In this document: positions 7,218 through 49,211 of the stretch, one piece after another
Numbering within the stretch: the first letter of the stretch is position 1
Layout: the number at the start of each line of letters is the position of its first letter
DNA from: a virus
Taxonomy: Duplodnaviria > Caudoviricetes
Length of the DNA: 58,740 nt
Reading direction: 5' to 3' (one strand)
IMG/VR virus record: IMGVR_UViG_3300046170_000273
Coordinates: 1-58,740 of that record
Made by a program: the position numbers and the translations under genes
The notes under the pieces: generated by a model
Database searches by the model: none
Told to the model about the DNA's origin: nothing
Seen by the model: only the letters and a program-made list of their open reading frames with translations

Positions 7218-8395
7218 TAGACCTCCAGGATCTTAGCTAAGCCACCACCTCTGAAAAGACCTTTCTCTCTTAATAGATCATCAATCTTATCTTTCAATGC
7301 TGGATCGCTGTCTGGATTTTTGAAAAACTTATATAGGTTTTTAAAATTTTTATTTGAACCTGCTTCACCACCTAAGTGTTTGAAGATTGCCGTCTTTTGT
7401 GCAGCTGTATATAAGCCTCTTACAATATTACCTGCACTATAACCTGGTCTTGCTAAACCACCATCTGCAAATTCAAAGTCATCTACCATTTCAGGATTAA
7501 ACGCTCTATCGGTAATTGTGTTACCTCTTGCGTCTTTTATCTTAACTAAATTTTCTGCAAAAGTTTGAATGTCGTCTGCGTTATCTAATTGTGCAACTGA
7601 CGATGCAACTTTGGGTCCAAAATATTTTTGTACTAATAACATAGGGTCGCCCATACCACCGCCACCACCTTCAGTCATAAATTTAAAATCATCTGCTTCC
7701 ATAATAGTAGACAATGATGGTCCACCTGGATTTGTTGGATCTTCTAAATCTTTTATTCTATTTAAAAACTCTCTAGCATTTGCTCTTGCAACAGGTTGAG
7801 CATTTGCTGATACACCGATATTTAAATAAATTTTATCTACAATATCATTTACAATTAAATTATTATTCTTAACATTTTTGATTGACTCAAGTCCTTCACC
7901 TGTAAATGGCGCTGCAATATCATCTGGTCCACCACGTGAACCTGGAGGTGGTAGATCATCTATCATACTTGATGGTAAGATTGTATCTCTTGGATCAACA
8001 CCTTCTGGTAAATCTACTTTTGATCTTAAAGACGCTAATCCTTCTTGATCTAAGTTTCTAGTTCTTGTCGCCATGTCTGTAATGTTTGCTGGCGCTGCAG
8101 ATGGAAAGTAAACTTCATCCATCTTCTGCATATTTTTTAAAAGCTGACCTGCTTGTATGTCATTCAGTTTACCTGATACAGCATAGCCAACAGAACTTTT
8201 TAATTCATCGACTGCTTTCGATCTTGGTAATACACCTAATGCTTCTGCGTTAATGTCCATGTCCAACATCAACTCTGGAGACTTACCCTTTCCTAAAAAA
8301 TTTACATTTGTTTTAGTCCCCATAACTTCATTTAAGTTTCCACCTAACTTTTTGTATAAAGCTAAAACTGCATCTAATGTTTGTTTCCTAGCCAT
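7217..8395 (-). CDS. Putative internal virion protein with FADGG and FRGGG tags
   Basis: 392 aa, overlaps the terL stop. Confidence 0.75.
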   Translation of the reverse strand: MARKQTLDAVLALYKKLGGNLNEVMGTKTNVNFLGKGKSPELMLDMDINAEALGVLPRSKAVDELKSSVGYAVSGKLNDIQAGQLLKNMQKMDEVYFPSAAPANITDMATRTRNLDQEGLASLRSKVDLPEGVDPRDTILPSSMIDDLPPPGSRGGPDDIAAPFTGEGLESIKNVKNNNLIVNDIVDKIYLNIGVSANAQPVARANAREFLNRIKDLEDPTNPGGPSLSTIMEADDFKFMTEGGGGGMGDPMLLVQKYFGPKVASSVAQLDNADDIQTFAENLVKIKDARGNTITDRAFNPEMVDDFEFADGGLARPGYSAGNIVRGLYTAAQKTAIFKHLGGEAGSNKNFKNLYKFFKNPDSDPALKDKIDDLLREKGLFRGGGLAKILEV

Positions 8396-27720: not shown

Positions 27721-27756
27721 TGACAAACAATATAAAGATGTTATATACTTTGTCAA
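27720..27756. promoter_or_regulatory. Face-to-face overlapping promoters (+: TTGACA-18-TATACT; -: TTGACA-18-TATTGT)
   Basis: Two consensus -35 hexamers in inverted orientation at the strand switch. Confidence 0.75.
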
Positions 27757-27776
27757 TAGAAAGAAGAAAAAATATT

Positions 27777-29274: not shown

Positions 29275-29751
29275 TTAAACTAGATCTTTTGCTTTTCCAA
29301 GAACAGGTTTATATTTAGTCTTACCTTCTGATTTGTAAGCCCAAAGATATGATGCTCTAGGTTTATCTGCAATCCAACTACAATGTATCCAGCCCGAATT
29401 AGGTTCGCCAGGAGTGTAGAACTCGAGGATGAGCTGATCATACGGAAGTTCTCTATGAATCCAATCTGCAAGCTCTGCATTGTCTACGCCTGGACATTCG
29501 AAATCTGCCGCCTCAGCTTTTGCATGCTGCGAATTAACCGAGCTGCCGATTGCAACACACAACTCTGGGCTACGAAATCCGCTCGTCACCTTAACTCTAC
29601 CGAAGTGATCACGCACTGGTTGTAAAATATTTTCACAAAGTAATTTTAAATTTTCTATTTGACCAGCATTAGGATTATTATTAATCCCACGCCTGATAGC
29701 TGTGTCTGATTTAATAAGCTCTGAAAGGCTAAAGTTACGTGTAAGTTCCAT
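29275..29751 (-). CDS. Peptidase M15A endolysin
   Basis: SGFR...SQH...AAD...WIH Zn ligands. Confidence 0.88.
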   Translation of the reverse strand: MELTRNFSLSELIKSDTAIRRGINNNPNAGQIENLKLLCENILQPVRDHFGRVKVTSGFRSPELCVAIGSSVNSQHAKAEAADFECPGVDNAELADWIHRELPYDQLILEFYTPGEPNSGWIHCSWIADKPRASYLWAYKSEGKTKYKPVLGKAKDLV

Positions 29752-29915: not shown

Positions 29916-30094
29916 TATTTCATATAGTTCATGACTAAAGCTAGGATAACTGACCCCATTCCTCCTACAATCATGTATTCTATTCTTCTAATACGTTCTT
30001 TCATTTCTTTTATTTGTTCGAACGTTTGCTTCTGCATTATTCTGCAAAGCTTTTCATGAGATTCTATTTTTTCTAATGCCGATTTTCTAGCCAT
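29915..30094 (-). CDS. 59-aa coiled-coil/C-terminal TM protein (XhlA/holin-like; not in ORF track)
   Basis: HEKLC..., C-terminal TM, upstream of the endolysin. Confidence 0.6.
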   Translation of the reverse strand: MARKSALEKIESHEKLCRIMQKQTFEQIKEMKERIRRIEYMIVGGMGSVILALVMNYMK

Positions 30095-30096
30095 AA

Positions 30097-33000
30097 TTAT
30101 CCTGTTGGAAATAGTATTCTTAATTTTTGTTCTGTTGTCAAGCTAGAAAGTTGGTTTCCAGAGTTAACATTATTAACATTACCAACAATATTTGAGTCAA
30201 TACTAGGTAGATTCAATGATGATGGCGTCGCAGGTGTGTCTTGAAAGATAGGTAATAATGGATTTTCGATTAAAGGAAACTCAGGTTCTAATAAAGAAGT
30301 TGTTCGTAACTGTTGTTGTATTTGACCTAATGCATCTCCTGCAGCAAGTAAAGGGTTAGACTCACCTATCTTTGCAGCATTTTCTGCAAACGCTTGTCGT
30401 ATTTCTGGTGAAATATTAATTGGTCTAAATATATTATTATCTATAGATGCAATTTCTACATTGGAAAGTCTATCAGTAGAATTTCTTAAACCACTCTGTG
30501 TGATACCTAATATTCTTGCTGCGTCTACATCTAATTTAAAATTTTTTCTAACATTAAACAATGCTCTGTTTGCATTAATGTATGCATCTACAATTTCATT
30601 TGGTTCTACTGGTCCACCTTTTAAAGCTTCTCTAGTAAACAATTGTCTAGATTCCCTTACACCTCTTTGATAGTTTGCAACTTTATATTTTAAAGTTCTA
30701 TCTGGATTTACTTTTACAGATCTAAAACCAAACAAACCTGCAAACTCATCACCAAACTCATATGCTTGTCCGTATTTATCAAACTTACCTTTTTGTAATA
30801 CATTAACAGACTCTATTGATTGATCTAATCTTTTTAATTGGTTAAGTGAAAACGGCATTTGTGCCTCTACTAAGTGAGCCATAATTTTATATGACTTATC
30901 ACCTGCAGTATCTTGTGGATTAAATACCTGGAAACCATCTCTAGTTCTACCACCTCTAGCTATAATATCTGTTACAGCTTCAGTCCAAATAGATTCTGAT
31001 ATAAAAGGCTGAGCAAATTCTTTCATTGATGTAAACATACCACCGATAAAATCATTCATGATTCCATCTTCATCTGTTCTACCATCAGCTACTGAGTTTA
31101 ATACAGTTTGAATAGGTCTAGATAACGTGTCGTAAGCATTAGCGTGACTAAAATCTACGTATTTAAAATTACCTTCTTCATCTTTTATTGGCAGTAGTGT
31201 TGAGTTTTTAGACCAGTCAGCTACATATCTTCTAAGAGCTTCTCTCTCATCATCCGTTACATTATAGATTGCAGCAAATGCTTCTGCTGTTGCAGCTGGT
31301 ACAGCTAATGTAGTTGCACCCATACCAAATAATCTAGTGTATCCAATACTTTCAAATGGTTTTACTTTTGTGCCATCAGGTAAAATTATTTCTTCGTTTA
31401 TTTCTCTAAGACCACGTCTTATAATATTAGTTCCTGTTCTAGCTATCTCTGCAGGAAACGATACGAAGTTACCAATAGGTAATTTTCTTAAACCTTTTAC
31501 AAAGTCTGATACAAAGTCATAGTTTGGTATATTATTTTTTACAATGTCTGCTGCTTCTCTTTTTAAAAAGTTATCATCAAAAACTGTTTCAATACCATTT
31601 CTTGTAAACGTTTGTCCTTTGACTAAACCTTTTGCTGAAAGACTTTTTTCTATTCTAGATTTTTCCATGGCCCATGATGCTATTTTCCAGAAGTCATCTT
31701 CAGCTGTATATAAATCTTGTGATACTTGTTTTAGTTTTGATAATGGTTTTAACAACATTCTAAAACCTTTGTCTGCTGTCATTGTTTCACCAAAGTTTAC
31801 ATCTTCTAACAGTCTTGTTAGATCTCCTAACCTTACGTTGTTGTTTACTACACCTAATTGTAATAGTTCTTCATACAAATCATTTTGTTGTCTTGTACCT
31901 TTTAGTGGTGTTTGTAATGCTTGGTATGCTTGTTTAATAGCTTGACCATCAGGTATGATACCATTTGCTGTAGCAAAGAAACTAGCACTAACAAAGTTTC
32001 TCATATGTGTTACCGGTGATAAAATTGTTTTAGCTACTTGTGATAAACCTTTTGGATATAAAACTAAACTTTCATACAACTTACCTAACATAGTAGGATC
32101 TGCTTGTTGTAGTCCTGTATCTTTTAAAGCTTTTGCAACACCAGGTCTTGCAAAAAATTGTCCTTCAGAGAAAGGATTTGTTGCACCTGTAGCAACATTA
32201 GCTTTATCTATAACTTCTTTTTTAACACCTTTACCTGCATCGATAGTTAATCTTTTTGCAGGATCAATTACTTCAACAGGTACAAAGTCTGTACCAAATA
32301 ATTCTCTAGCTTCATCTTCGCTTTTAGCTAAGAAAGGTTTTACATTACTTTTTCCAGAACTAAAAGCTGTAGCTACCTCATCATTCTTTGCCATTAAATT
32401 TTTAAAAAACATATTACGTCTTGTAAGCATAGATAGTTTTGCAGTAGCACCTATGATTGTTTGCATTGGATTTCTTTGTTTACCAAATAATTCTTCGAAG
32501 ACTTCTCTATCTGCTTTTGATTTTATCTCACCAATAGATACTAAAGGTGTTGCAGTTCTTCTTTTTAATGTTTCATCTAATACAGTTCTGTTTACAAAAA
32601 ATTCTGGTACCTGAAAGATTACATCTGAAGGTTTATCTAATCTAAAACCTTTGGGTAAATTAGGATTTTTTAATGCATTAGCTACAATCTCTTCTGCTTG
32701 CAGGTCTGTTATAGGTTTGCCTGCTTCTTCAGCACTTGACATAAATACTTTTTTTGCTCTTTCAATTGCTTCTCTTACGGGTGTGTATGCAAAGAAAGGT
32801 ATAATACTTTTGTTTTGAAATACATCATACGTTGCACCAATGTAGTTTTTAAATTTATTACCAAATAATTTTTTAAATTCTGCTATCTCATTCTTACCTA
32901 AAGTTCTTCCTAGATTAGAAAACAGATCAGCCCATCTATCTCTAATAGTCGTTAAACTTCCAAAGACAGTTCCAATAGTATCGTCATCAACTTTTAAAGC

Positions 33001-34020
33001 TTTTAATTTTTTAAGTAAGGCTTCTTTTTTTGTTTGATCCAATGCTCCAAATTTTGCAACACCAAGATCATCTATCTTTGCTTCTCCTGATAACAATAAA
33101 TCATTGATATCTTTTAATAATGCATCTCTATTTTTTTGACCTGTTCTGTTAGCTATGTTTCTAAACGGAGGAAATATTTTATCTATAGATAAATCTAATT
33201 CTCTAGATATATTTTTTGCTGCTATGGCATCAGAAGATCTCTGACCAATATTAGTTCTTTCAATATCAAAAAACTCTTGAGTCTTACCACTTCGTGCCCT
33301 GAACCCTGATGCAATTTTATCGATCCATCTATCAATCTTATCGTTAGAATCTGTTATACTTTTATTTCTATTCGTTAATCTTTTAATTACTTTACCAGTA
33401 CCACCAATTAGACCTGTAAATAAAGCACCTTCTGTACCAAACTTAACTCTGTTAATTAAATCTTTTACCGGATCACCATCAGACTCTCTGTCTATTTCTG
33501 TAGGCCCACCAATTAAATCACCAAACGTACCTATCTTTTCTACGTCACCAACAAAAGTTGCTTCACCAATACCGCCACCGATAGCTCCACCAATAAATCT
33601 ATTTGTTTTACCTCTAGTATTTAATTTTAAAATATCATCACCAAGTTTTTTTACCTGACTTGTAGGTTTAAAATACCTCATGTTCTTTGATGCTTTCATT
33701 GCATCTGCTGCAATTTTAGATCCTATTTTAAAACCTGCAGCTCCAGGTATACCAATGTTAACTAATGCCTCTGTTATTTGACCAGCAGTTGTTGCCTCTG
33801 CTTTTTCGTCTAGTGTTGTAAGATCATCAAAGAATGCTTCTACTCTAGCTGCTCTGTTTTGATCTACACCTAAATCTAAAAGTGTTGCACCTAATGAAAA
33901 GAAACCTTTGGGTATTGCAAGAAGACCTGATCCGATACCAGCTAGTACAGATTCAATTGTGCCTACTTTATTATTGTCGTCATTTGCTGACGCCATTTCT
34001 AGTTCTCTTAGAGTAGCCAT
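30097..34020 (-). CDS. Large internal virion (DNA ejection) protein
   Basis: 1307 aa, last of the ejection cluster. Confidence 0.75.
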   Translation of the reverse strand: MATLRELEMASANDDNNKVGTIESVLAGIGSGLLAIPKGFFSLGATLLDLGVDQNRAARVEAFFDDLTTLDEKAEATTAGQITEALVNIGIPGAAGFKIGSKIAADAMKASKNMRYFKPTSQVKKLGDDILKLNTRGKTNRFIGGAIGGGIGEATFVGDVEKIGTFGDLIGGPTEIDRESDGDPVKDLINRVKFGTEGALFTGLIGGTGKVIKRLTNRNKSITDSNDKIDRWIDKIASGFRARSGKTQEFFDIERTNIGQRSSDAIAAKNISRELDLSIDKIFPPFRNIANRTGQKNRDALLKDINDLLLSGEAKIDDLGVAKFGALDQTKKEALLKKLKALKVDDDTIGTVFGSLTTIRDRWADLFSNLGRTLGKNEIAEFKKLFGNKFKNYIGATYDVFQNKSIIPFFAYTPVREAIERAKKVFMSSAEEAGKPITDLQAEEIVANALKNPNLPKGFRLDKPSDVIFQVPEFFVNRTVLDETLKRRTATPLVSIGEIKSKADREVFEELFGKQRNPMQTIIGATAKLSMLTRRNMFFKNLMAKNDEVATAFSSGKSNVKPFLAKSEDEARELFGTDFVPVEVIDPAKRLTIDAGKGVKKEVIDKANVATGATNPFSEGQFFARPGVAKALKDTGLQQADPTMLGKLYESLVLYPKGLSQVAKTILSPVTHMRNFVSASFFATANGIIPDGQAIKQAYQALQTPLKGTRQQNDLYEELLQLGVVNNNVRLGDLTRLLEDVNFGETMTADKGFRMLLKPLSKLKQVSQDLYTAEDDFWKIASWAMEKSRIEKSLSAKGLVKGQTFTRNGIETVFDDNFLKREAADIVKNNIPNYDFVSDFVKGLRKLPIGNFVSFPAEIARTGTNIIRRGLREINEEIILPDGTKVKPFESIGYTRLFGMGATTLAVPAATAEAFAAIYNVTDDEREALRRYVADWSKNSTLLPIKDEEGNFKYVDFSHANAYDTLSRPIQTVLNSVADGRTDEDGIMNDFIGGMFTSMKEFAQPFISESIWTEAVTDIIARGGRTRDGFQVFNPQDTAGDKSYKIMAHLVEAQMPFSLNQLKRLDQSIESVNVLQKGKFDKYGQAYEFGDEFAGLFGFRSVKVNPDRTLKYKVANYQRGVRESRQLFTREALKGGPVEPNEIVDAYINANRALFNVRKNFKLDVDAARILGITQSGLRNSTDRLSNVEIASIDNNIFRPINISPEIRQAFAENAAKIGESNPLLAAGDALGQIQQQLRTTSLLEPEFPLIENPLLPIFQDTPATPSSLNLPSIDSNIVGNVNNVNSGNQLSSLTTEQKLRILFPTG

Positions 34021-34029
34021 AAGTTAGTC

Positions 34030-35409
34030 CTAACCCATTATTTCGTCTAGATCTACAAATGCTATTTGATTGCCTTTTTTCTCTACGGCTCTTTTGTTTA
34101 CAACATAGATACCATCATCTAGACCAGAGTAGTTTTCTTGGAAGTAATCTATTTCGTCTTTACCTTTGTTGTTATCGTTTCTTTCCCATTTTTGAAACTT
34201 GTCATCAGGTAGTGTAAGTGCATCAGTACCTTTAGATCTAATAAACTCTGTAACAATATCACTTGTTACTGTACCTGCACCAGATTTAGCAGAGGTTGCT
34301 GCTATCATATCAGCTACTGAAGTACCACCTAATTCTTTTGTTAATTTTCTAGCTTGTAATAATCTTAATTCATTAAGTACTTCATTAGCTGGATCAGATT
34401 GTTTAATATCTTTTTCAATCTCACCTTTAAGTATTGCAGCGTTAATCTGTTTTTTGAGATCAGCTGATGAATCTAAGTTTTTAGATATAGCTGATATAAT
34501 TCTGTTTTGTAAATTACCTGATTGAATAGATCCTTTAAGATCTCCACCTTCTTCAGAAACAATTTTACTTGCATCAATCAATGAATTGTAAGCTGCTTTC
34601 TTATTCATCTTATCAATACCCATTAACTTGTAATATTTTTCTCTTGTTTCGTTTATTCTATCTTCATTAATTTTAGCTTTTTCTTCTTCAGTTTTTGGAG
34701 TTTTAACTGCGCCTGTTCCATCATTAGGAACTGTTGTAATTTTATCTGTTCTCTCTAATTTTGTATCTCCGCCTGTTACTTTTGGTTCATCAGGACCAAA
34801 TGGATCAAACTTTGTACCCGGTACTAGGAAGTTTGCAAATCCTTTTGCTGTGTCTATAGCTAAAGGAAACCCTATTTCACCTGCACTATACGTTAAACTA
34901 GGTGTTGATGCTGCTAGAATTTTATTTTCTCTTATAGCCATACCTAATTTTCTAGGATCTTTTAAAGCTTGTAGATAACTTAATTTACCTGTTGCATCTA
35001 CTTTTGAACCGTAAGGAACTAAAGCTCCTTTAGTTGTTCCTGTTCCACCCATAGGTATCATAGAACCTGAACTTCTAAATCTACTACTAGGCAACATATA
35101 TTTTTGCATAAATACAGGAAGCTTACTTACAATACCTTCTGTAGCTGGTGTAAAATTCGTTGGTGTTTTTATACCAGACATAACGTTTTTAAAAAAACCA
35201 GGTGTCTGAGATACTCCTCTTCCTAAAGCAGCTCTAGCTGTATTAAATAAAGCGGCTGCAGCTGTACCATAACCATATTGTGACCTACCATCAGGTCCTT
35301 TTGGATATACAGGGTCACCCACAAGAGCAGGTTTACTTTTCATTCCAGTCATGACCCCTTCTTTAATAGGACCACCATATCTAAACATAGGTCTATTTAA
35401 AGGTCTCAT
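34030..35409 (-). CDS. Internal virion protein (LNRPMFRYGG N-terminus)
   Basis: 459 aa. Confidence 0.75.
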   Translation of the reverse strand: MRPLNRPMFRYGGPIKEGVMTGMKSKPALVGDPVYPKGPDGRSQYGYGTAAAALFNTARAALGRGVSQTPGFFKNVMSGIKTPTNFTPATEGIVSKLPVFMQKYMLPSSRFRSSGSMIPMGGTGTTKGALVPYGSKVDATGKLSYLQALKDPRKLGMAIRENKILAASTPSLTYSAGEIGFPLAIDTAKGFANFLVPGTKFDPFGPDEPKVTGGDTKLERTDKITTVPNDGTGAVKTPKTEEEKAKINEDRINETREKYYKLMGIDKMNKKAAYNSLIDASKIVSEEGGDLKGSIQSGNLQNRIISAISKNLDSSADLKKQINAAILKGEIEKDIKQSDPANEVLNELRLLQARKLTKELGGTSVADMIAATSAKSGAGTVTSDIVTEFIRSKGTDALTLPDDKFQKWERNDNNKGKDEIDYFQENYSGLDDGIYVVNKRAVEKKGNQIAFVDLDEIMG

Positions 35410-35615
35410 TTCTTCCTCTTTTTCATTGCTTTACCAAAACCACGTTTGGCTATTCCACATCCTCTAACTCTACCACCGTCTTTAAGTCCTAACATTTTCA
35501 TACCCATGTCAAGAGCAGTGTGTCCGTACATACCACTTTCAAGTATTTTTCTACCCATTGATTTACTAGGGTCTAAAGGATTTAAAAATTTTAAAATTTT
35601 ATTTTGTTTAGCCAT
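35406..35615 (-). CDS. Small basic protein with LKDGG..GCGIAKRG
   Basis: 69 aa, overlaps both neighbours. Confidence 0.7.
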   Translation of the reverse strand: MAKQNKILKFLNPLDPSKSMGRKILESGMYGHTALDMGMKMLGLKDGGRVRGCGIAKRGFGKAMKKRKK

Positions 35616-36402
35616 ACAGTTTACCGAATAATCCGCCGATACCTAAAGCTGTACTTAAACCTGTTGCAAATGGACTACTCTGAGGTAATGGTGCAGACAT
35701 AGCTCCTAATGCTGCAGCTTGGTTAATACCTGTTCCATATTGTTGTAGTCTTTGGTACGGCTCGTAAGCTGCTGTTCTTGCAGCGTCGGCATCTGCTTGT
35801 AGTTGTTGTTGATTTAATCCTTGTCTAAATGCCCCAAGGTTACCTTGTGTAGCAACATCTCCTGCTAGACCGGCTCTTTGGAAATTAGATAATGCAAATT
35901 GATTTTGTAAATCTGACGCTCTTCTTGCTGTTGCATCTTGAAAAGCTTGTTGTTGTAATTGTGCTGCAATACCTGTTCTAGCTGCTGTAGTATCAGCCAT
36001 GTATTGTCCTTCTAATGCACCTTGTCTACCACCACCGAATGCACCTGACGTGTAAGCATTTTGACCTATCTGTTGCATACCTGCTTGTCTAGATAAATCA
36101 AATTGTCTTAAAGATTCATCTATAACACCTGTTTGATATGGTGACATAAATGATGCGATAGAACCTGCGCTGCCTGCTCCTCCGGCCCCGGTTCCTGTTA
36201 AAGTCTGTGCTTGTGTTAAGTATGGTTGATAAGATCCTAGACCAGCTGTAGCGTCCTGTATTGCTGATGTTTGTAATGGGTCTGCTCCTGCAACAAAAGA
36301 TCTACCTGTAAATGTACCTGTATTAATAGGTGCCGACGTTGTAGCGGTGAGCTGTCGTGCGTAATCTTTTCCTGCTTCTTGTAAATAATCTGGTAATGCC
36401 AT
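35608..36402 (-). CDS. Gln/Ala-rich DNA transfer (pilot/ejection) protein
   Basis: FMSPY, GAFGGGR, Q-rich, hydrophobic Gly C-terminus. Confidence 0.75.
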   Translation of the reverse strand: MALPDYLQEAGKDYARQLTATTSAPINTGTFTGRSFVAGADPLQTSAIQDATAGLGSYQPYLTQAQTLTGTGAGGAGSAGSIASFMSPYQTGVIDESLRQFDLSRQAGMQQIGQNAYTSGAFGGGRQGALEGQYMADTTAARTGIAAQLQQQAFQDATARRASDLQNQFALSNFQRAGLAGDVATQGNLGAFRQGLNQQQLQADADAARTAAYEPYQRLQQYGTGINQAAALGAMSAPLPQSSPFATGLSTALGIGGLFGKLYG

Positions 36403-37703
36403 TATTCTATTCTATTCTCCAACATTTGTGATTGATCGAACATTTCTTGTGCAGGATTTTCCATGCCCTGGGACTCTTCTGATATATTACCACCAGATTC
36501 TAGATTGTCCATCATATTTTGCATAACTTCTGCACCTTTGTCTATGTCGCCACCACCTGCATTTCTTACAGCGTCTGCTGTAAATACAAATTCATTCTTG
36601 CTGAGTCTAGCTGGCACATCGTCCGCTCTTTCCTCAGCTCCTAGTGGTACAAAACCACCCTCTCTGTAATCTTTTTCAAGACCACCCATGTCCATAATAC
36701 CGCCTTCGGCTTTTCTATCTCTTAAAGCATCATAAATCATTTTATCGTCACCACCTGAATATAGATCATCATAGCTACCCATGAAATTATCTATATCATC
36801 ACCACCTAATTTTAGTCTTTTAGCTACGATCTCAAGAGCTCCTTCATCTAAAGCATTAATTGCATAACTACCATCTTCTGCTTTAGTAATATCAAAACCT
36901 TCTTGAATTAATTCTTCCATAACTTTTGCAGCTTTGCCTGACTTAGGTGTTACAAAAACATCTTGACCAACAGCTTGTGCTTGTAATCCTGCATCTGTCA
37001 TAACATCTTCATCTCTAACACTAATGTTTATATCTGCATCATCAAATAATGATTTAACTTTTTTAACTCCACCTCTTATTGCATTCATAATACCGCCACC
37101 AAGTCTATAACCTGGTCTAGCTAGTCCACCATCAGCGTAGAAAGAACTTTGTACAGCTGACTTAGGAGGCATAAAGTATAATGCAGAGTTTGTTGGATCG
37201 TTATAATATTTTCTAGCTTGATTTCTTACATCTTCTATCATTGGCTGTGCCATAGTAAAAGGTGTACCTTCATCAACTTCTTCTTCACCCATAAAAAATG
37301 GTGCTGCTACTGCTGCTCCTGCACCTAGTCCACCTAATATTCTAGGTATACTAAACTTAGCTCCTTCTTTACCACCTACTCTAAATAAATCTCCTAGTGT
37401 ACTAAACTTACCACCTTGTCCAAGTAATGCACCAATACCCCCAGTGTTTCCAAAAATACCAGAAGCTGCACCACCTAATCTTGCTCTACCAAGTAGTCCA
37501 CCAAACTGTGTGCCAGGCATACCAAACATCATGGCTCCTGTTAAAGCTGCTTTACCTAATGGTGATTTAACAACTTTCTTTACAGTTTTTCCAATTTTTT
37601 TTACAATCTTACCTAGAAAATATCCTTGTCTCGGCTCTTCGAGTGTCATAAGTCCACCCATATTACGAAGTTGTCTTTCCATATTCATTCTTGAAATTGC
37701 CAT
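36402..37703 (-). CDS. Internal virion protein with multiple xxGG tags and C-terminal DDVPARLSKNEFVFT module
   Basis: 433 aa. Confidence 0.75.
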   Translation of the reverse strand: MAISRMNMERQLRNMGGLMTLEEPRQGYFLGKIVKKIGKTVKKVVKSPLGKAALTGAMMFGMPGTQFGGLLGRARLGGAASGIFGNTGGIGALLGQGGKFSTLGDLFRVGGKEGAKFSIPRILGGLGAGAAVAAPFFMGEEEVDEGTPFTMAQPMIEDVRNQARKYYNDPTNSALYFMPPKSAVQSSFYADGGLARPGYRLGGGIMNAIRGGVKKVKSLFDDADINISVRDEDVMTDAGLQAQAVGQDVFVTPKSGKAAKVMEELIQEGFDITKAEDGSYAINALDEGALEIVAKRLKLGGDDIDNFMGSYDDLYSGGDDKMIYDALRDRKAEGGIMDMGGLEKDYREGGFVPLGAEERADDVPARLSKNEFVFTADAVRNAGGGDIDKGAEVMQNMMDNLESGGNISEESQGMENPAQEMFDQSQMLENRIE

Positions 37704-37737
37704 AATCTTACCTTTTTATAGTCTTTTTCTCTTATAA

Positions 37738-38859
37738 TCAATCATATATATCTACTAGATCTGCTAGTCCACCGTCCATATAATCAGTTCTTCCTTTACC
37801 AGTTCTATTACTTACAGGACCACCTGTTGTTGCATTGGTACCAAATCCTTGGCCTGAATCATAAGATTGCTGGCCATCACTACCTAATCCATAGTTAGTT
37901 GCTCCATGTATAGTAGGGTCATATTGTCTTGCTGATTCTGCTCTAGATTCGGCTGCTTTTCTTTCAGCTTCTATTCTAGCATTTCTTTCTGCAGTTTTTC
38001 TATCTAAATCTCTTCTTATTGTTTGTTGTTTGTAGAAATTATATTTAGCTAAATTCATTTTGTTCATCTTATTAGCGTACGCTGCATTTGGACCTTCAAA
38101 CATTCCTGTTTCAGGATTAAATGTTGCACCAGCATATTGTGATTTGCTACCAATTTTTCCAGTTGGACTTAAAACGTCACCAAGACTACCATATTTATCT
38201 CCAACATATTCTGCATAGTTACCGAATCCAGATCTAACATTTATTCCAAAAGGATCTTTACTTAATCCTGAATCATTTGGACCAAATACTGTTGGACCTT
38301 TGTAGCCCATATTCATATTAATAAATTCTTGATCGGCATAAGGTAATGAACCAAACCTATCCATTTTACTCATTAAAAAACTTACTGGACCTAGGCCGCC
38401 TGCTTTACCCATTAAATTTTGAATACCGCCTGTGACATTTCCTAACGCATTTTGAACTCTACCTGCTGTAGTTAGTTCTAAAGGAACATCAGTTCCTGTT
38501 CCAATATACTCACCCATATCCGGACCTGTTAATTCTTGTTGTCTATAACTCGGCATACCCATGAAAGTTTTATCAACTTTACTTTGATATAGATTATCTA
38601 CATTAGGTGTATCTTGATTGTTAAAATATTTATCTGATGTATATTTATAAAAATTATTATAGTCCATCATTGGAGAACCAGCCTGTAATGTTCCGCCTCC
38701 ACCACCTGAACCACCTGGTTGATATATAGCAGGTAGACCTGAAGGAACTTTGTTTTCATCTCCTGATGGTACTTGAAATGGATTTAATAGATATTGACTT
38801 TGAGGTATGTATTTATACCCTGCATCATATACCGATTGATCGTATGGACTTAAAACCAT
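37738..38859 (-). CDS. Putative internal virion protein ending YMDGGLADLV
   Basis: 373 aa. Confidence 0.75.
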   Translation of the reverse strand: MVLSPYDQSVYDAGYKYIPQSQYLLNPFQVPSGDENKVPSGLPAIYQPGGSGGGGGTLQAGSPMMDYNNFYKYTSDKYFNNQDTPNVDNLYQSKVDKTFMGMPSYRQQELTGPDMGEYIGTGTDVPLELTTAGRVQNALGNVTGGIQNLMGKAGGLGPVSFLMSKMDRFGSLPYADQEFINMNMGYKGPTVFGPNDSGLSKDPFGINVRSGFGNYAEYVGDKYGSLGDVLSPTGKIGSKSQYAGATFNPETGMFEGPNAAYANKMNKMNLAKYNFYKQQTIRRDLDRKTAERNARIEAERKAAESRAESARQYDPTIHGATNYGLGSDGQQSYDSGQGFGTNATTGGPVSNRTGKGRTDYMDGGLADLVDIYD

Positions 38860-39101
38860 TATTCTGACCCTGCTCCTAATGGCGGCATTGCCGCAACTTT
38901 TATTTTTACAGATCTAACTACATGTTCTTTTTGTGTGGCTGTATCTGGATTTGCAATATCATCTTCTGCTTCTTTGTCTGAATTATACTCGTAATTAGTT
39001 TCCTTGTTTCTTAGAACTACTTCTGTTTCACATTTTACAACAGGTACTTTTTTACCATTTATGTATGTGTATGCTACTTCACCTTCTTCTATAAACGCCA
39101 T
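38859..39101 (-). CDS. Hypothetical protein
   Basis: 80 aa, AGGAG SD. Confidence 0.7.
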   Translation of the reverse strand: MAFIEEGEVAYTYINGKKVPVVKCETEVVLRNKETNYEYNSDKEAEDDIANPDTATQKEHVVRSVKIKVAAMPPLGAGSE

Positions 39102-39109
39102 GACTTCTC

Positions 39110-39439
39110 CTATTCTCTGTTTATCTCTAATATTGATGCAATAATATGTAATTCATTTGCATCTGCTGCTTGTGCCTTTAATACCTCATTTTCTTGTAAA
39201 ATTAAAGGATGAGTTAACAGCTCTGTTGTTGCTTTTGAGGCTATTGCTTTGTCTTTAAACAAATTAAATACTGCTGCAGCAGCATTTGTTATTGTAAAAG
39301 TTACCGTGGTCCCTGATCCAGCATCTTCAGACACTATAAGACTTTTAATTATGGCTCTAGAATCAGATGGTGCTGTGTACACTACAGTATTATCTGTAGT
39401 GCTTAGATCTATTAATGAGTTTTTATATATATTAGCCAC
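39110..39439 (-). CDS. Small beta-rich tail/structural protein
   Basis: 109 aa. Confidence 0.7.
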   Translation of the reverse strand: MANIYKNSLIDLSTTDNTVVYTAPSDSRAIIKSLIVSEDAGSGTTVTFTITNAAAAVFNLFKDKAIASKATTELLTHPLILQENEVLKAQAADANELHIIASILEINRE

Positions 39440-39599
39440 TTATAAACCAAGAAAATCTTTCTTGCTCCTGTTTTTGTTCGTCTAAAAATGTAGAGTTTAA
39501 TTGTTCTACAATTAAAGCAACTGCTCTGTTAATTTGTTTTTGATTAGATTCATCGTATTCTTTTTTTGGTTCTGGTAATCTTATTACTATTTTAGCCAT
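39432..39599 (-). CDS. Small tail-associated protein
   Basis: MAKIVIRLPEPKKEY, TAATG-coupled to the previous gene. Confidence 0.65.
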   Translation of the reverse strand: MAKIVIRLPEPKKEYDESNQKQINRAVALIVEQLNSTFLDEQKQEQERFSWFISG

Positions 39600-41539
39600 T
39601 ATCTTCTCCCGTCTGGTTGTACGTCTAATCTCATAGTTCCAAATCTCCAAGATTCACTAACATCGGTATTTGCTATTTTTATATTAACAAAACGCCCTCT
39701 TGCCCTAGTATCTTTTTTCTGAGTAGAAGTTGTAATAGTAAAAGGACTTAGTGCTGTTGTTGTTTGTGAGTCAGATGGATATCTTTTAACTGCAAGCGTT
39801 ACTTTTGCATTTCCTGCAAGATCTTTAAAGTCAGGTAAAAATCTTCTAACTGCAAGAAAAACATCGCCTGCTACAGCATATGCTTGACCTCTAGTTCTTT
39901 GTTGAAGATCATAATCATAAGATTGTATAAATGATGTGACAGTTGTTGTGCTACCATCAGGATTAACTTGATCAGTTCCTACTTCGTGTTCAAATAAAGT
40001 AGTTTGCCCGAGCCCTGATTCTCCGACAATGACCGGAAAGGTTCCTGTAGAACTGTCATTAAATTTAGTTGCAATAGGATTAGGATATACAGTTGCATCA
40101 ATCCAAGTTGTTCTAGCTTCTGTGCCTATGTACCAAACTCCTCCTGGTATTCTAGGTCCACTTTCTCCATAATTAAATATAACATATTGATCATTGTATT
40201 CAGAGTTTGTTGATGGATAATACCAAGTTACTTCTGTGTATTGATTATTTAAACCTGCATATACTTGTTGTCCTTTTGTTGTATCTGCTTGATCATAAAC
40301 ATAATCTTCAACAGTGCATGGTAATGATTTAACTGTACCATCAAACGCAAAGAAACCGTTTGTAGACATCCAATAAGCTACACCATCTATTTCAACAGCT
40401 GCATTCTTACCAATCAATCCACAGTTTGTACCAACTTGTTCAAATCCAAATGTGAAAGGAGCACCAATAAATTTCATGGTGTACAATGCATTGTCTGTCC
40501 AAACTAGAATAGTTTCTTTTGCTTTCAAAGCACCAATAATTTTTGTACCATCTTGAAGTCTTTGTGTACCTGCAGAGTTAATTGCAGTTACTGTATAATC
40601 ATTTATATCTTCTTGTTCTGAAAATCTTATAAACATATCATCTTGTGTTGATGGTGTACCGATTGTTGTTTCAGTTCCTAGATGAATTAAGTGACGTGTT
40701 GTTGGTGATACTAATGTCACCCTTGTTGCAGTTGGATTATTTGTAGTTACAAAACCAGATGTAGCTGTTGATGCTCTTACTGTTAAAGGATCTGTAGCTC
40801 CTGCATTCCAAGTAAATGTTTTACCATTTGCAATTGTTGCAACAAGAACTTGACCAAAATTACTTAATGACCATAGGCCTGGTTCTAGTGTTACGTCTGT
40901 TGCAGAAGAGGCTTCACCCCATTTACCTGCTGACCAAGTATCTGTACCCCAACCATAACCGTATGATTGTGCAGCTGGACCTACTGTCTCATAAGGTTTA
41001 ACATCCATGCTACCACCTGTAGTTACAGTTGCAGATGCGTTAGAACTTTGTGTGATTGTAAATATACTTGAACTTGTAACACTTGTTACTTGAAATAATT
41101 TATCTTCAAAATCTGAATCAGAATAACCAGTACCTGATGGTAAAGTTACGTTATCTAATAATACAATATCTCCTGCTACTAGGTTATGACTTGTTTTTGT
41201 AATAGAACAAACTGCCGAACCCGATGTTGTTGCAAGAGTGCAAGAACCTAGTGTAGTTTTTAAAGGCGTAACATCATATAGCTGTCCTTCAAAATAAATA
41301 AGTAGAAACTTGTCTGTTCCAATAGCAACATATCTATTACCTGCTAAATCAACAAATGCAAATTCACGTCTTGCAACACCAACAATTGTATCTGTAATAA
41401 GTGAAGACCAACCACCAACTTTTTCTGGTAGCATATATCTAAATCGTACGTTGTCACAATCTACCCAACGTTGTTCAGCGCCTACTGTTGTATTTTGTTT
41501 GTCAATTCCTGGAACAAATTGAAAATCAAGAAGAGCCAT
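39599..41539 (-). CDS. Tail stabilisation/nozzle protein (P22 gp10/T7 gp12-like)
   Basis: 646 aa beta-rich; NVRF..PEKVGGW, IRFS.QE, NCG, RARGR motifs. Confidence 0.75.
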   Translation of the reverse strand: MALLDFQFVPGIDKQNTTVGAEQRWVDCDNVRFRYMLPEKVGGWSSLITDTIVGVARREFAFVDLAGNRYVAIGTDKFLLIYFEGQLYDVTPLKTTLGSCTLATTSGSAVCSITKTSHNLVAGDIVLLDNVTLPSGTGYSDSDFEDKLFQVTSVTSSSIFTITQSSNASATVTTGGSMDVKPYETVGPAAQSYGYGWGTDTWSAGKWGEASSATDVTLEPGLWSLSNFGQVLVATIANGKTFTWNAGATDPLTVRASTATSGFVTTNNPTATRVTLVSPTTRHLIHLGTETTIGTPSTQDDMFIRFSEQEDINDYTVTAINSAGTQRLQDGTKIIGALKAKETILVWTDNALYTMKFIGAPFTFGFEQVGTNCGLIGKNAAVEIDGVAYWMSTNGFFAFDGTVKSLPCTVEDYVYDQADTTKGQQVYAGLNNQYTEVTWYYPSTNSEYNDQYVIFNYGESGPRIPGGVWYIGTEARTTWIDATVYPNPIATKFNDSSTGTFPVIVGESGLGQTTLFEHEVGTDQVNPDGSTTTVTSFIQSYDYDLQQRTRGQAYAVAGDVFLAVRRFLPDFKDLAGNAKVTLAVKRYPSDSQTTTALSPFTITTSTQKKDTRARGRFVNIKIANTDVSESWRFGTMRLDVQPDGRR

Positions 41540-41549
41540 TTTTTAGCTC

Positions 41550-42270
41550 CTATATTTTATCTTTGTATACCCAGCCTCTCGTTGCATTAACATATACTAA
41601 CGTGAAGGCTGAAGCATTGGCTGAAACAACTAGATCTGAACTAGATCCATTTATATTAGAACTGTTTCTTCCAATTGTTAAGTTGTTAGATGCAAGGTTA
41701 TTACCACTATCGATAAATGTAACTTCATTTCCTATAGCTGGAGATGCGGGTAAATTGATAGTGATTGCAGTACCAATACCACTTCCAGAAGTATCTATTA
41801 ACACTTGGTCACCATTAACTGTAGTGTATGTAGTCGTTGGTGTGTAATATCCTTTTGTCTGTAGTTTTCCTGTAATATTTGTACCATCTGAATACAGCAC
41901 TGTTGTCGATCCAACCGGTAAAGCTAGCCCGGTTCCCTGATACAGTTTTAACTGTAAGAGTGTAGTTACTAGATGATCTAGCTGTAGCATCTTCTACAAT
42001 AAAAACTCTTTCTGCAGAGTCTGGCATTGTGACTGTTCTGTTAGCAGTTAGTGTGCCTGTTAATTTAAAGTATAAATTTTTTCCATTTGCTGTAGCGTGA
42101 TTAGCTAAAGATAGAGCAACGTCTGCTCCACCTACTGCTAATGATAAATAGCCTGATGCTGCTTGTTCTAATATCTGTAAATTTGTATTTGTAATAGTAC
42201 CCCAGGTTCCTGATTTCTCACCTGTAGTAATTAATTCTAGTTTTAAGTCGCTCGATGTACTTGACGCCAT
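41550..42270 (-). CDS. Tail/fibre-base protein, one +1 frameshift near 41935 (probable error)
   Basis: MASSTSSDLKLELITTGEKSGTWG joins ...LPASPAIGNEV...NATRGW. Confidence 0.7.
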
Positions 42271-43388: not shown

Positions 43389-44042
43389 TTACTTTTTAAA
43401 CCAACTTGGAAGTCCTAAATAAGGTCTTCTATCATACATGTTTTGATCAGCACCTTTAGATTTTTGATCATTATAATGAAGAAAAACTTGAGCGCAGTCA
43501 TCTCCTTGAAACTCTTCTCTCCAATGTTCTAATTCCATACCCCTGTAAACCAACATATCACCAGGTTTTAAAATAATAGAAATACCTTTATTATTACTAT
43601 TTACAGTAATTTTTTTACCATCGGGTATACCTACATTTTTCTTAGGTTCTAAATGTATAGGCCAAGGATCTCCACCAAGATTTAAAGTTGTAGATATCTC
43701 ACAACTAAATCTGTCTTTGTGTCTTTTAAGAACATCTCCAGCTTTATAAATTCTTGCATAAGAATATGTTGGATTTAACTTAAGTCCTGTCTTCTTTTGC
43801 ATTATATAAAGAGTTCTAATTAACAAAGTTTCCATAACTAAATCTGAATAGTGAGAATACGTATTTGGAACTTGTTCATCTGCCCACGTTCCCCATTCCT
43901 CTGTAAATTGAGAGATATATCTTTGATCAAATAAAGTTCTTGCAACTTTTCTTTTTAATAAAAAATAATTATATGCGAACTCTGCTAATACTTTTGGTAC
44001 AGCTTCTTTGATAACTATATATTTATTTTTTTTGAAGCTCAT
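43389..44042 (-). CDS. 2OG-Fe(II) oxygenase
   Basis: HKD...HWRE...QVFLHY. Confidence 0.85.
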   Translation of the reverse strand: MSFKKNKYIVIKEAVPKVLAEFAYNYFLLKRKVARTLFDQRYISQFTEEWGTWADEQVPNTYSHYSDLVMETLLIRTLYIMQKKTGLKLNPTYSYARIYKAGDVLKRHKDRFSCEISTTLNLGGDPWPIHLEPKKNVGIPDGKKITVNSNNKGISIILKPGDMLVYRGMELEHWREEFQGDDCAQVFLHYNDQKSKGADQNMYDRRPYLGLPSWFKK

Positions 44043-44760
44043 CTTTTTGACTCCTTTCTTTTGATATTGTTGTTTCAACAACTTTAATATTAAAATGTAT
44101 AAATCTAAAAGGATCTAATCCTGCATCGACTGCAAACTCGTGAGGGACATAACCTGGAAATATAATCATCGTTCCTGGCTTAGGTCTATAATGCACTTGA
44201 TCTGTACCCATTGTAATTTGTGATGGATTTTTTAAAGGTAGCTTTGTCATTTCTGCACCGGGTCTTGGTTCGTGAAAGATAGGATAAGATGTTTTTTCAC
44301 TACACTTTAAAAAATAGAATCCTGATACGTGTTGATTCCAATGTTGATGTGTAGAGTGATGACCACCACCTCTTTTACTAAATTCTTGTACCCAAAATTC
44401 TGTAAAGTGTAAGCTGTGATTTCTTAAATCAAAACCTTGCCAATCTAAAAACTCATAGGATCGTTGACCAATGAACTCTACTAGATCTTTAGCTTTAGGG
44501 TCTTGTGAAAAACTTTCACTATGATTAGATAAACCAAAATCTCCTATTTCTTTTTTCCATTTAGGATCATTTTTCATTTTATCTTTTAATAATTTCTCAC
44601 CTTTTTTTAAATACTTATCTGTTAGTTTAATTGCATTTTTTAAAAACATTGGAGCTTCTGCAATCCATACTGGTGTTTGAAAATAAAACGCAGATTTAAA
44701 ATCTACGTGTCCTTTTGGTTTTGGTAATGTGCTACTACCACCTTGTTTTATATCATTCAT
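44023..44760 (-). CDS. 2OG-Fe(II) oxygenase (TIGR02466-like)
   Basis: HQH..SGFYFL...FPGYVPH...R.IHFN. Confidence 0.85.
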   Translation of the reverse strand: MNDIKQGGSSTLPKPKGHVDFKSAFYFQTPVWIAEAPMFLKNAIKLTDKYLKKGEKLLKDKMKNDPKWKKEIGDFGLSNHSESFSQDPKAKDLVEFIGQRSYEFLDWQGFDLRNHSLHFTEFWVQEFSKRGGGHHSTHQHWNQHVSGFYFLKCSEKTSYPIFHEPRPGAEMTKLPLKNPSQITMGTDQVHYRPKPGTMIIFPGYVPHEFAVDAGLDPFRFIHFNIKVVETTISKERSQKDELQKK

Positions 44761-44761
44761 A

Positions 44762-47797: not shown

Positions 47798-47803
47798 AAT
47801 TTT

Positions 47804-49204: not shown

Positions 49205-49211
49205 AATTTAC

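What the first reader, a model, noticed from the sequence alone, without database searches (positions are those of the whole stretch)
36402..36730. Lambda tape-measure C-terminal-like module in a podovirus internal protein: candidate reader of the GG tag
Seen: YREGGFVPLGAEERADDVPARLSKNEFVFTADAVRNAG. From memory, lambda gpH and many tape measure proteins have FAxGG...GEFVF/V..A near the C-terminus, flanked by (F/Y)AxGG motifs, and gpH is proteolytically matured. No standard prohead protease is recognisable here. Inference: this module may be the (auto)protease or receptor acting on xxGG-tagged proteins, linking siphovirus tape-measure maturation to podovirus cargo processing.
Basis: inference. 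Interest (0 to 1): 0.7.

Follow-up and report, generated by a model that had tools for sequence, protein, structure and literature searches.

The report
Tape-measure tail module in podovirus protein
The end of a 433-residue protein of an abundant marine short-tailed phage carries the same small glycine-bounded module that sits near the end of long-tailed phages' tape-measure proteins, including lambda's, which links two kinds of DNA-injection proteins, but nothing shows that it is a protease.

Summary
The peptide lies at residues 346-383 of a 433-aa minus-strand protein (36402-37703). It is part of a ~60-aa module bounded by Gly-Gly on both sides.

A profile built only from 8 siphophage tape-measure proteins (TMPs) finds this ORF alone among 849 window ORFs (E 1.8e-19). 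A 90-sequence profile aligns it to lambda gpH 729-791 (hhalign 93%, E 2.5e-7). The same module occurs in the TMPs of phages Douge and JBD30, unresolved in both structures. It also occurs in large proteins encoded after the portal gene in HMO-2011-type podoviruses.

In TMP-sized ORFs from IMG/VR the module starts a median 114 aa from the C-terminus, as here. The gene lies downstream of a nozzle homologue in a podovirus genome of the HTVC023P type, in a block that looks like an internal-virion (ejection) protein operon.

AlphaFold gives no globular fold: an extended, invariant stretch and then two helices. My reading is a partner-dependent docking "hook" at the end of an ejected, TMP-like protein.

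The protease or "GG-tag reader" idea has no support. There is no enzyme fold, lambda's copy lacks the invariant Asp and Ser, and T5 is cut at an AEGG site without having the module. It is a new variant of a known kind, of moderate interest.

The parts
36402..37703 (-). CDS of the 433-aa module-bearing protein (P0001). Gly-rich (15% Gly). Putative ejected, TMP-like internal virion protein.
   Evidence: ORF and translation. 7998 of the 8000 scored near-length candidates match at E<=1e-3. 15% Gly.
36480..36668 (-). TMP-type module, residues 346-408: upstream YREGG, an extended invariant stretch (348-370), helix 376-382, helix 387-402, downstream LESGG.
   Evidence: PHROG TMP hits. TMP-only HMM E 1.8e-19. 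PDB-sequence hits to the Douge and JBD30 TMPs. Lambda gpH 729-791. Secondary structure and pLDDT. Invariant G350, D361, P364, S368, E371 in 90 sequences.
36555..36668 (-).
   Evidence: String search and coordinate conversion.
36681..36713 (-). Junction KAEGGIMDMGG (residues 331-341) just upstream of the module. It resembles the residues around the mapped T5 pb2 cut (R1127|AEGGMMYPG).
   Evidence: G334, G335, G340 and G341 are invariant in 73 family members. The T5 likeness is statistically insignificant (hhalign 1.4%).
36408..36455 (-). C-terminal helix (residues 417-432) after the module. Positional analogue of the TMP C-terminal helix that sits in the baseplate hub (inference).
   Evidence: AlphaFold helices 417-432 and 98-113 of the fragment. 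Resolved C-terminal helices in JBD30, T5 and Douge.
37107..37139 (-). Central junction motif YADGGLARPGY (residues 189-199). Family consensus ADGGRxGYxxGG.
36804..37046 (-). Small alpha/beta domain (residues 220-300). The only confidently folded part; fold generic.
   Evidence: pLDDT about 92 for residues 250-280, lower at the edges. Best structural matches Z 5.1 or lower, unrelated families.
37284..37565 (-). Gly/Ala-rich, moderately hydrophobic region (residues 47-140) with GxxxG-like repeats. Possible membrane-active part (inference).
   Evidence: Sequence. Two relatives reach a Kyte-Doolittle TM-like score at about 113-145; P0001 itself does not.
7439..7471 (-). FADGGLARPGY in the 392-aa protein P0385 (7217-8395, minus strand). 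It shares 10 identical residues in a row with the central junction of P0001.
   Evidence: [FYW]A.GG is kept in 63 of 80 IMG/VR relatives.
39599..41539 (-). Context: 646-aa tail nozzle/hub homologue, upstream of the block.
   Evidence: phrog_3287 E 2.2e-107. PDB sequences 9nwi_Y E 9.7e-11 and 8zkk_O 'nozzle gp16' E 1.6e-4.
30097..36402 (-). Context: downstream genes of 264, 69, 459 and 1307 aa. By size and order they resemble podoviral ejection-protein sets (inference).
   Evidence: ORF list. phrog_22602 'virion structural protein' for the 1307-aa protein. Gene orders in phiRIO-1/T7 and Pa223. No sequence match to solved ejection proteins.

Best explanation
The last ~100 residues of the 433-aa protein are a 'TMP C-terminal cassette'. 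Its parts, in order, are a GG junction, a ~60-aa module (an extended invariant stretch GGFVP..G....DD-VPA-RLS-xNE-FVF, then two short helices), a second GG, and a terminal helix.

Shown:
- The module is homologous to one found about 115 residues from the end of many siphophage tape-measure proteins, with a degenerate copy in lambda gpH 729-791.
- It also occurs in large proteins encoded after the portal gene in HMO-2011-type podoviruses.

Inferred:
- The carrier is a virion-internal protein that is ejected at infection. It would be a short-tailed phage's functional counterpart of a tape-measure protein.
- The module has no stable fold of its own. It becomes ordered only when it docks onto a partner or onto copies of itself. 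It then acts as a hook that holds the protein's C-terminal end in the exit channel (nozzle, adaptor or portal lumen) until triggering, or anchors it there afterwards.
- The variable Gly-rich part leaves the virion and helps to build the trans-envelope conduit.
- The xxGG motifs are the hinges or boundaries of this cassette, not tags read by it.
For: Homology:
- five PHROG families annotated as TMP.
- 224 phage records; 44 of the 60 listed rows are annotated as TMP.
- Douge gp16 E 1.9e-33 with two copies; JBD30 gp46 1019-1068 E 3.4e-9.
- TMP-only HMM E 1.8e-19, next best 0.21 of 849 ORFs.
- lambda, 93.4%.

Position:
- In 66 closed IMG/VR ORFs of 602-3449 aa the module starts a median 114 aa from the end (IQR 106-123).
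- In 383 of 383 family proteins the core lies 54-73 aa from the end.
- The N-terminal and middle parts vary in length (134-1112 aa in the stored set, fragments included), while the C-terminal 109 aa stay 69-79% identical in the 120 longer proteins listed.

No autonomous fold:
- pLDDT is under 50 for residues 348-370, although nearly every residue there is invariant in 73 sequences.
- Helices 376-382 and 387-402 are confident only in the full-length run (block means 79-90). In the fragment run the block means are 55-71.

Published parallel:
- The same JBD30 segment (1022-1066) was predicted by its authors to be a 'hook' of two helices and a hairpin, and proposed to anchor the TMP in the baseplate.
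- They drew the analogy to the 43 C-terminal residues of T5 pb2* seen in the hub crevice (PMC11445458 and PMC10038345, passages).

Context:
- SU10-type portal and adaptor and a nozzle homologue upstream.
- Internal-virion-protein operons lie downstream of the nozzle in most podoviruses (PMC4819975, passages).
- HTVC023P and HTVC027P are podoviruses by morphology (bioRxiv 10.1101/2019.12.14.876532, passages).
Against: - No experiment or solved structure shows the module bound to anything. It is unresolved in Douge (only 1658-1699 built), in JBD30 (last 33 aa) and in lambda (690-817 not resolved).
- The JBD30 'hook' is itself a prediction, and the T5 anchor is not detectably homologous.
- The module is not always near the C-terminus. 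It is near the N-terminus of HMO-2011 gp49, in mid-protein in CRP-9 gp54 and in giant actinophage TMPs, and doubled in Douge. A plain 'terminal plug' does not explain that.
- Presence of this protein in virions is inferred from synteny only. No match to T7-type or Pa223-type ejection proteins was found.
- P0001's own Gly-rich region does not reach a transmembrane hydropathy score.
- Strictly conserved Asp, Ser and Glu could equally mean chemistry or metal binding.
Confidence: 0.45

Rival explanations
1. The module is a self-cleaving or trans-acting protease, or a receptor, that recognises xxGG junctions and matures TMPs and podoviral cargo proteins.
For: - GG junctions bracket the module.
- T5 pb2 is cut exactly before AEGG.
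- Lambda gpH is cut somewhere in the Gly-rich region just upstream of its module copy, by an unknown activity. Computed masses allow a cut anywhere between about 700 and 732: residues 1-710 weigh 77.7 kDa and 1-730 weigh 79.3 kDa.
- Asp361, Ser368 and Glu371 are invariant in 90 sequences.
That is a lead, not independent evidence.
Against: - No globular or enzyme-like fold in two AlphaFold runs.
- No family or PDB-sequence match to any peptidase. The structure search aligned only the central domain, at Z 5.1 or lower.
- Lambda, the proven case of cleavage, lacks the Asp and Ser equivalents: a 4-residue deletion, and His in place of Ser.
- T5, the mapped case, lacks the module.
- In the stored set most junction motifs sit inside the same proteins as the module, not on separate cargo.
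Confidence: 0.07
2. The cassette is mainly an incorporation signal. The conserved C-terminal ~100 aa bind the portal, scaffold or core during assembly so that a variable payload is packed. They play no role at ejection.
For: - The C-terminus is near-invariant and the rest is highly variable in length and content.
- A related short motif sits in a second protein, encoded beside the terminase and two genes upstream of the portal gene.
- In HMO-2011-type phages the module-bearing protein is encoded after the portal gene, with one to two short ORFs between.
Against: - In siphophages the module sits in TMPs, which are tail proteins, not head proteins, and which assemble on the tail tip.
- A head-targeting signal would therefore have to serve a different purpose in most of its carriers.
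Confidence: 0.2
3. The module acts on the host envelope. It would bind or help to cut peptidoglycan, or insert into a membrane, once the protein has left the virion.
For: - One weak hit to a PHROG annotated as endolysin (phrog_971, E 0.0011).
- In T5 the region after the cut (pb2C) is reported to be muralytic.
- In the Rhodococcus phage REQ1 TMP the module is followed by a stretch that I recall as an M15/VanY-like signature; this was not tested.
- Gly-rich hydrophobic stretches precede the cassette in lambda and T5.
Against: - No lysin family matches the module itself.
- The module is conserved from actinobacterial to proteobacterial phages, whose envelopes differ greatly.
- This phage carries a separate M15 endolysin.
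- The module is polar and acidic, not hydrophobic.
Confidence: 0.12

Closest known systems
Lambda gpH (tape measure), residues about 729-791 within the cleaved C-terminal fragment gpHC
   Same: - The same order of elements: FATGG, a loop, PA..GEFVFT..A, G.GNL, YATGG. About 60 aa more follow, whose end binds the hub protein gpI.
- hhalign 93.4%, E 2.5e-7.
- The Nitrincola phage TMP copy bridges the two: 41% identity to gpH 733-784. Its E of 5e-10 is for a two-protein database with composition correction off.
   Different: - Lambda's copy is degenerate. A four-residue deletion removes the T.TSD stretch, and the Asp and Ser equivalents are lost.
- gpH is an 853-aa TMP of a long-tailed phage, with a chaperone and a tail tube.
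- gpH's Pfam and NCBIfam models do not match the window protein.
JBD30 gp46 TMP residues 1019-1068 (the 'hook' predicted by its authors) and Douge gp16 TMP (two copies: 962-1026 and 1412-1473)
   Same: Clear sequence homology to the module profile: E 3.4e-9 and E 1.9e-33. The predicted shape is the same: an extended or hairpin part, then two helices.
   Different: These are siphophage TMPs of 1158 and 1699 aa. The module is unresolved in both structures, so its partner is unknown.
T5 pb2: cut after R1127; the pb2* C-terminal 43 residues anchor in the hub crevice; pb2C plugs the hub
   Same: - The architecture, by analogy: a hydrophobic Gly-rich stretch, a GG junction (R|AEGGMMYPG against K-AEGGIMDMG), a short region and a terminal helix.
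   Different: No detectable homology of the module (hhalign 1.4% and 0.2%). Only the junction looks alike.
Podoviral internal virion/ejection proteins (T7 gp14/15/16, P22 gp7/16/20, Pa223 gp53/54/56)
   Same: The gene lies downstream of the nozzle in a block with a small, a middle-sized and a very large gene. By inference the protein is packed and ejected.
   Different: No sequence match to any of them. None of the passages I read in those papers mentions a TMP-type module.

Membership tests
Tail tape-measure protein (TMP) of long-tailed phages | Gene lies between the tail assembly chaperone (G/GT type) and the distal tail/hub genes of a long tail module that has a tube protein. | tested here: not met
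   The neighbours are a nozzle homologue upstream and genes of 264, 69, 459 and 1307 aa downstream. No tube or chaperone family was found among the ORFs scanned. Portal and adaptor are of the SU10 podovirus type.
Tail tape-measure protein (TMP) of long-tailed phages | Long, mostly alpha-helical protein whose length sets the tail length. | tested here: inconclusive
   AlphaFold gives mean pLDDT 60, few helices, and Gly-rich low-confidence regions. Stored family lengths run from 134 to 1112 aa, fragments included. No tail-length data exist.
Tail tape-measure protein (TMP) of long-tailed phages | Conserved GG-bounded module about 115 aa from the C-terminus, followed by a terminal helix. This feature was defined here, not by a curated model. 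| tested here: met
Lambda-family TMP models (Pfam TMP_2, Tape_meas_lam_C; NCBIfam TIGR01541) | Match above the curated cut-off. | tested here: not met
   gpH matches all three. The window protein matches none, at E up to 0.01 in Pfam and up to 10 in NCBIfam. Tape_meas_lam_C covers gpH 627-701, which is upstream of the module.
Phage maturation or self-processing protease | A recognisable peptidase fold or family with conserved catalytic residues. | tested here: inconclusive
   No family or PDB-sequence hit. No globular fold predicted for the module. The Asp and Ser equivalents are absent from lambda's copy. A new, partner-dependent chemistry cannot be excluded by these tools.
Podoviral internal virion/ejection proteins | Encoded in the block downstream of the nozzle (tubular tail B). 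| tested here: met
   The nozzle homologue at 39599-41539 is followed on the same strand by genes of 72, 109, 80, 373, 433 (this protein), 264, 69, 459 and 1307 aa. The rule comes from PMC4819975.
Podoviral internal virion/ejection proteins | Present in the virion and expelled at infection. | not testable with these tools
   No proteomics of HTVC023P-type virions turned up in the papers I read. The supplements of those papers were not opened.
crAss-like cargo protein 1 (Pfam PF25725) | Match to the family model. | tested here: inconclusive
   Only a weak language-model lead (score 0.78, below the tool's 0.9 guide). The Pfam scans of the protein (E up to 0.01) and of the 14 module copies (E up to 10) did not list the family. 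I did not check whether the Pfam copy in use holds that model.

The most novel reading that the evidence does not exclude
The GG-bounded module is the long-sought determinant of tape-measure processing. On docking in the tail or exit channel it positions the neighbouring xxGG junction for cleavage, either self-catalysed or by a bound partner. The same device would mature ejection proteins of abundant marine podoviruses. Siphophage TMP maturation (lambda gpH to gpH*, T5 pb2) and podoviral cargo processing would then share one mechanism.
Probability: 0.08. Interest if true: 0.8.

Novelty: new variant of a known kind. Interest (0 to 1): 0.5.

Why it matters
- Tape-measure proteins of long-tailed phages and ejection proteins of short-tailed phages are thought to do the same job: leave the virion first and build the conduit for DNA. 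They are not known to share sequence. A shared, strongly conserved cassette would be direct evidence of common parts. It would also give one handle for testing how such proteins are held and released.
- The module is widespread. It matches 3518 clusters at E<=1e-3 in the 50%-identity library. No Pfam family matched any of the 14 copies scanned, and the module is unresolved in the solved tails that carry it.
- The carrier family belongs to the HTVC023P-type pelagiphages, which are described as among the most abundant ocean viruses and whose structural proteins are largely unassigned.
- It also marks where to look for the unmapped lambda gpH cleavage site.

Tried and rejected
- Pfam and NCBIfam on the whole protein and on the fragment: nothing. 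Pfam on all 14 module copies at E<=10: only stray single hits.
- phmmer of the whole protein against PDB sequences: only chance hits, E 0.02 or worse.
- Megablast of window 30000-42000 against the phage collection: no match.
- VIA-align wide search with the full-length model: best Z 5.1, only the central domain 215-301, unrelated families. The module itself was barely tested. The second model (mean pLDDT 57) was not searched because it is too uncertain.
- ESM Atlas: a weak crAss cargo lead (0.78), not confirmed.
- T5 pb2C against the module profiles: no homology.
A closer 6-sequence alignment worked.
- Literature:
  - A search for the junction strings returned only noise.
  - Searches on tape measure, podovirus and ejection proteins and on HMO-2011 virion proteomics listed no paper describing a TMP module in a podoviral protein. 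I read only passages of five of the listed papers. This is not proof that it is unpublished.
  - The HMO-2011 PNAS paper is not held.
- PDB-sequence searches with the neighbouring 1307-, 749-, 459-, 373- and 264-aa proteins: nothing significant.
- The search of earlier findings by place and by sequence: nothing.
Full report
**1. What is there**

The stated range lies in the 3' end of a minus-strand ORF, 36402..37703 (433 aa, P0001). The quoted peptide is residues 346-383, window 36555-36668. The plus strand has no credible gene here. The only + ORF in the range (36463-36669, 68 aa) is antisense to a coding region with thousands of relatives.

The protein is abundant in marine metagenomes:
- 7998 of the 8000 scored near-length candidates match at E<=1e-3.
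- The C-terminal 114 aa match 3518 clusters of the 50%-identity library at E<=1e-3, and 906 at E<=1e-30.

**2. The genome**

The window is a whole IMG/VR virus record, 96% complete by CheckV. PHROGs, Pfam and PDB sequences give this map:

| Coordinates | Assignment |
|---|---|
| 8388-9854 | large terminase |
| 2350-4866 | SU10-type portal |
| 55419-56327 | major capsid protein |
| 51872-52546 | SU10-type adaptor |
| 46448-51409 | fibre genes |
| 39599-41539 | nozzle/hub homologue (9nwi_Y E 9.7e-11; 8zkk 'nozzle gp16' E 1.6e-4) |
| 29275-29751 | M15 endolysin |

The only cultured relatives found by tblastn are Pelagibacter phage HTVC027P and phage 023Pt_psg01. They share just the C-terminal module (65-66% identity), and the module sits in the same gene order. 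HTVC023P and HTVC027P are podoviruses by morphology, with largely unassigned structural proteins (bioRxiv 10.1101/2019.12.14.876532, passages; PMC9599517, passages).

After the nozzle, on the same strand, come genes of 72, 109, 80, 373, 433 (this one), 264, 69, 459 and 1307 aa. In most podoviruses the internal-virion (ejection) protein operon follows the nozzle gene (PMC4819975, passages). Phage Pa223 shows a comparable run of small, 55-aa, 505-aa and large genes (preprint passages). That P0001 is an internal, ejected protein is therefore an inference from synteny. No sequence match to known ejection proteins was found.

**3. The module is real and is shared with tape-measure proteins**

- The C-terminal fragment hits five PHROG families annotated as TMP: 5448, 23013, 4197, 3547 and 6090. 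It also hits one family annotated as endolysin and one of unknown function.
- tblastn of 67 aa found 224 phage records. Among the 60 listed rows, 44 lie under features annotated as tape measure, in phages of Gordonia, Mycobacterium, Vibrio, Tsukamurella, Streptomyces, Rhodococcus and Nitrincola.
- The other 16 listed rows are unannotated or differently named homologues in related phages, and podoviruses.
- In the podoviruses HMO-2011 (gp49), CRP-9 (gp54) and ctYwJ313, the module lies in a 762-1395-aa protein encoded after the portal gene, with one to two short ORFs between. It is near the N-terminus in one and in mid-protein in the other two.
- A 14-sequence profile (A1) hits two TMPs in PDB sequences: Douge gp16, with two copies (E 1.9e-33), and JBD30 gp46 1019-1068 (E 3.4e-9).
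- An HMM built from the eight siphophage copies alone finds P0001 at E 1.8e-19 among 849 six-frame ORFs. The next best is E 0.21.
- No Pfam or NCBIfam model covers the module.

**4. Lambda**

Direct BLASTP is not significant, though its top HSP is the motif (E 0.13). Eight of the 14 module copies pick gpH 718-784 as their best local match. The Nitrincola copy does so at 41% identity (E 5e-10). These E-values are for a two-protein database with composition correction off.

hhalign gives 69% with A1. With the 90-sequence alignment A4 it gives 93.4%, E 2.5e-7, gpH 729-791. Both flanking GG motifs align. Lambda's copy has a four-residue deletion and lacks the equivalents of Asp361 and Ser368.

**5. 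Architecture**

An IMG/VR scan with the canonical pattern matched at least 590 stretches, of which 574 were confirmed by tblastn; 80 loci were kept. These hold 84 copies.
- In the 66 ORFs closed at both ends (602-3449 aa, median 1030), the module starts a median 114 aa from the C-terminus (IQR 106-123).
- A bulky-x-x-GG motif is present upstream in 59 of 84 copies and downstream in 74 of 84.

In A4 the invariant positions are G350, D361, P364, S368 and E371. Conserved at 90% or more are G349, A365, L367, V373, A376, G404 and G405.

Within the P0001 family:
- In 383 of 383 stored proteins the core lies once, 54-73 aa from the end.
- The rest of the protein varies from 134 to 1112 aa, fragments included. 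It is punctuated by repeated A.GGR.GY-type junctions.
- The number of junctions rises with length (Spearman 0.57; examples).
- In the 73-sequence alignment, residues 328-430 are almost invariant.

**6. Structure**

- Full-length AlphaFold (73 sequences): mean pLDDT 60. One small alpha/beta domain (residues 220-300, about 92 for 250-280) is confident. Residues 348-370 are under 50. Helices 376-382 and 387-402 score 79-90. There is a terminal helix at 417-432.
- The C-terminal 114 aa with the 90-sequence alignment gave the same helices, at lower confidence (block means 55-71), and no fold for the invariant stretch.
- The structure search found only weak generic matches, all to the central domain (Z 5.1 or lower).
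- A stretch that is invariant yet unstructured on its own is what one expects of a segment that folds on a partner or on copies of itself.
- The JBD30 authors predicted the same segment (1022-1066) to be a 'hook' of two helices and a hairpin. They proposed that it anchors the TMP in the baseplate, by analogy with the T5 pb2* residues seen in the hub crevice. None of the solved tails resolves the module.

**7. The protease/reader idea**

For it:
- Junctions bracket the module.
- T5 pb2 is cut at R1127|AEGG, and P0001 has K-AEGGIMDMGG 15 residues upstream of the module.
- The protease that cuts lambda gpH is unknown, and the computed fragment masses allow a cut just before FATGG.

Against it:
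- No enzyme-like fold or family.
- Lambda lacks the conserved Asp and Ser.
- T5 lacks the module.
- The residue before the junction is not conserved in the family.
- The 'tags' are mainly internal punctuation of module-bearing proteins.

There is one exception in this window. The 392-aa protein at 7217-8395 shares ADGGLARPGY with P0001, and [FYW]A.GG is kept in 63 of 80 of its relatives. That points to a short linear motif with a function of its own, still unknown.

The binding test could not be run.

**8. Verdict**

- The homology claim is supported.
- The functional inference is not supported, though not excluded.
- Most likely the module is a partner-dependent docking cassette at the end of a TMP-like, ejected podovirus protein (confidence 0.45).
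- This is a new variant of a known kind: a TMP terminal cassette outside long-tailed phages.

I treated it as a lead and re-derived the T5 and lambda points myself.

Noticed in passing
window 41550-41990 (-) and 41815-42270 (-): Two overlapping ORFs in different frames match the C-terminal part (242-363) and the N-terminal part (1-122) of the same PHROG 31104. This is possibly one fibre-like gene split by a frameshift or a sequencing error.
   Followed up: no
window 7217-8395 (-), motif at 7439-7471: The 392-aa protein encoded next to the large terminase carries FADGGLARPGY, 10 residues in a row identical to the central junction of P0001. 63 of 80 IMG/VR relatives keep [FYW]A.GG (typical form DFEFADGGRVPFF), and three carry it twice. 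Function unknown; no Pfam or PHROG family.
   Followed up: partly
window 39599-41539 (-): The 646-aa 'virion structural protein' (phrog_3287) matches solved podophage nozzle/hub chains (9nwi_Y E 9.7e-11; 8zkk 'nozzle gp16' E 1.6e-4). It is probably the tail nozzle.
   Followed up: partly
proteins P0125, P0161, P0220, P0298 and other relatives of P0001: Long family members (760-1112 aa) are strings of variable segments separated by repeated A.GGR.GY-type junctions. Junction count rises with length (Spearman 0.57).
   Followed up: partly
L015 (Rhodococcus phage REQ1 TMP), downstream of the module: The module is followed by a stretch that I recall as an M15/VanY-type SxHxxGxAxD signature. If so, the module would sit just before a lytic domain in some TMPs. 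Not tested against any family library.
   Followed up: no
window 43389-45139 (-) and 20136-20786 (-): Auxiliary metabolic genes: a ferrochelatase-like protein, two 2OG-Fe(II) oxygenases, and a ferredoxin-family protein (phrog_3704).
   Followed up: no
window 27663-29210 (+): A 515-aa ORF on the strand opposite to nearly all other genes, next to the endolysin. The relatives 023Pt_psg01 and HTVC027P have an oppositely oriented DEAD/SF-II helicase at the matching place. Not scanned here.
   Followed up: no
window 57495-58502 (-): A 335-aa protein (phrog_28737, unknown function; no Pfam hit) lies between the portal gene and the capsid gene, where I recall that many phages encode a prohead protease or scaffold. 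Its nature was not tested.
   Followed up: no
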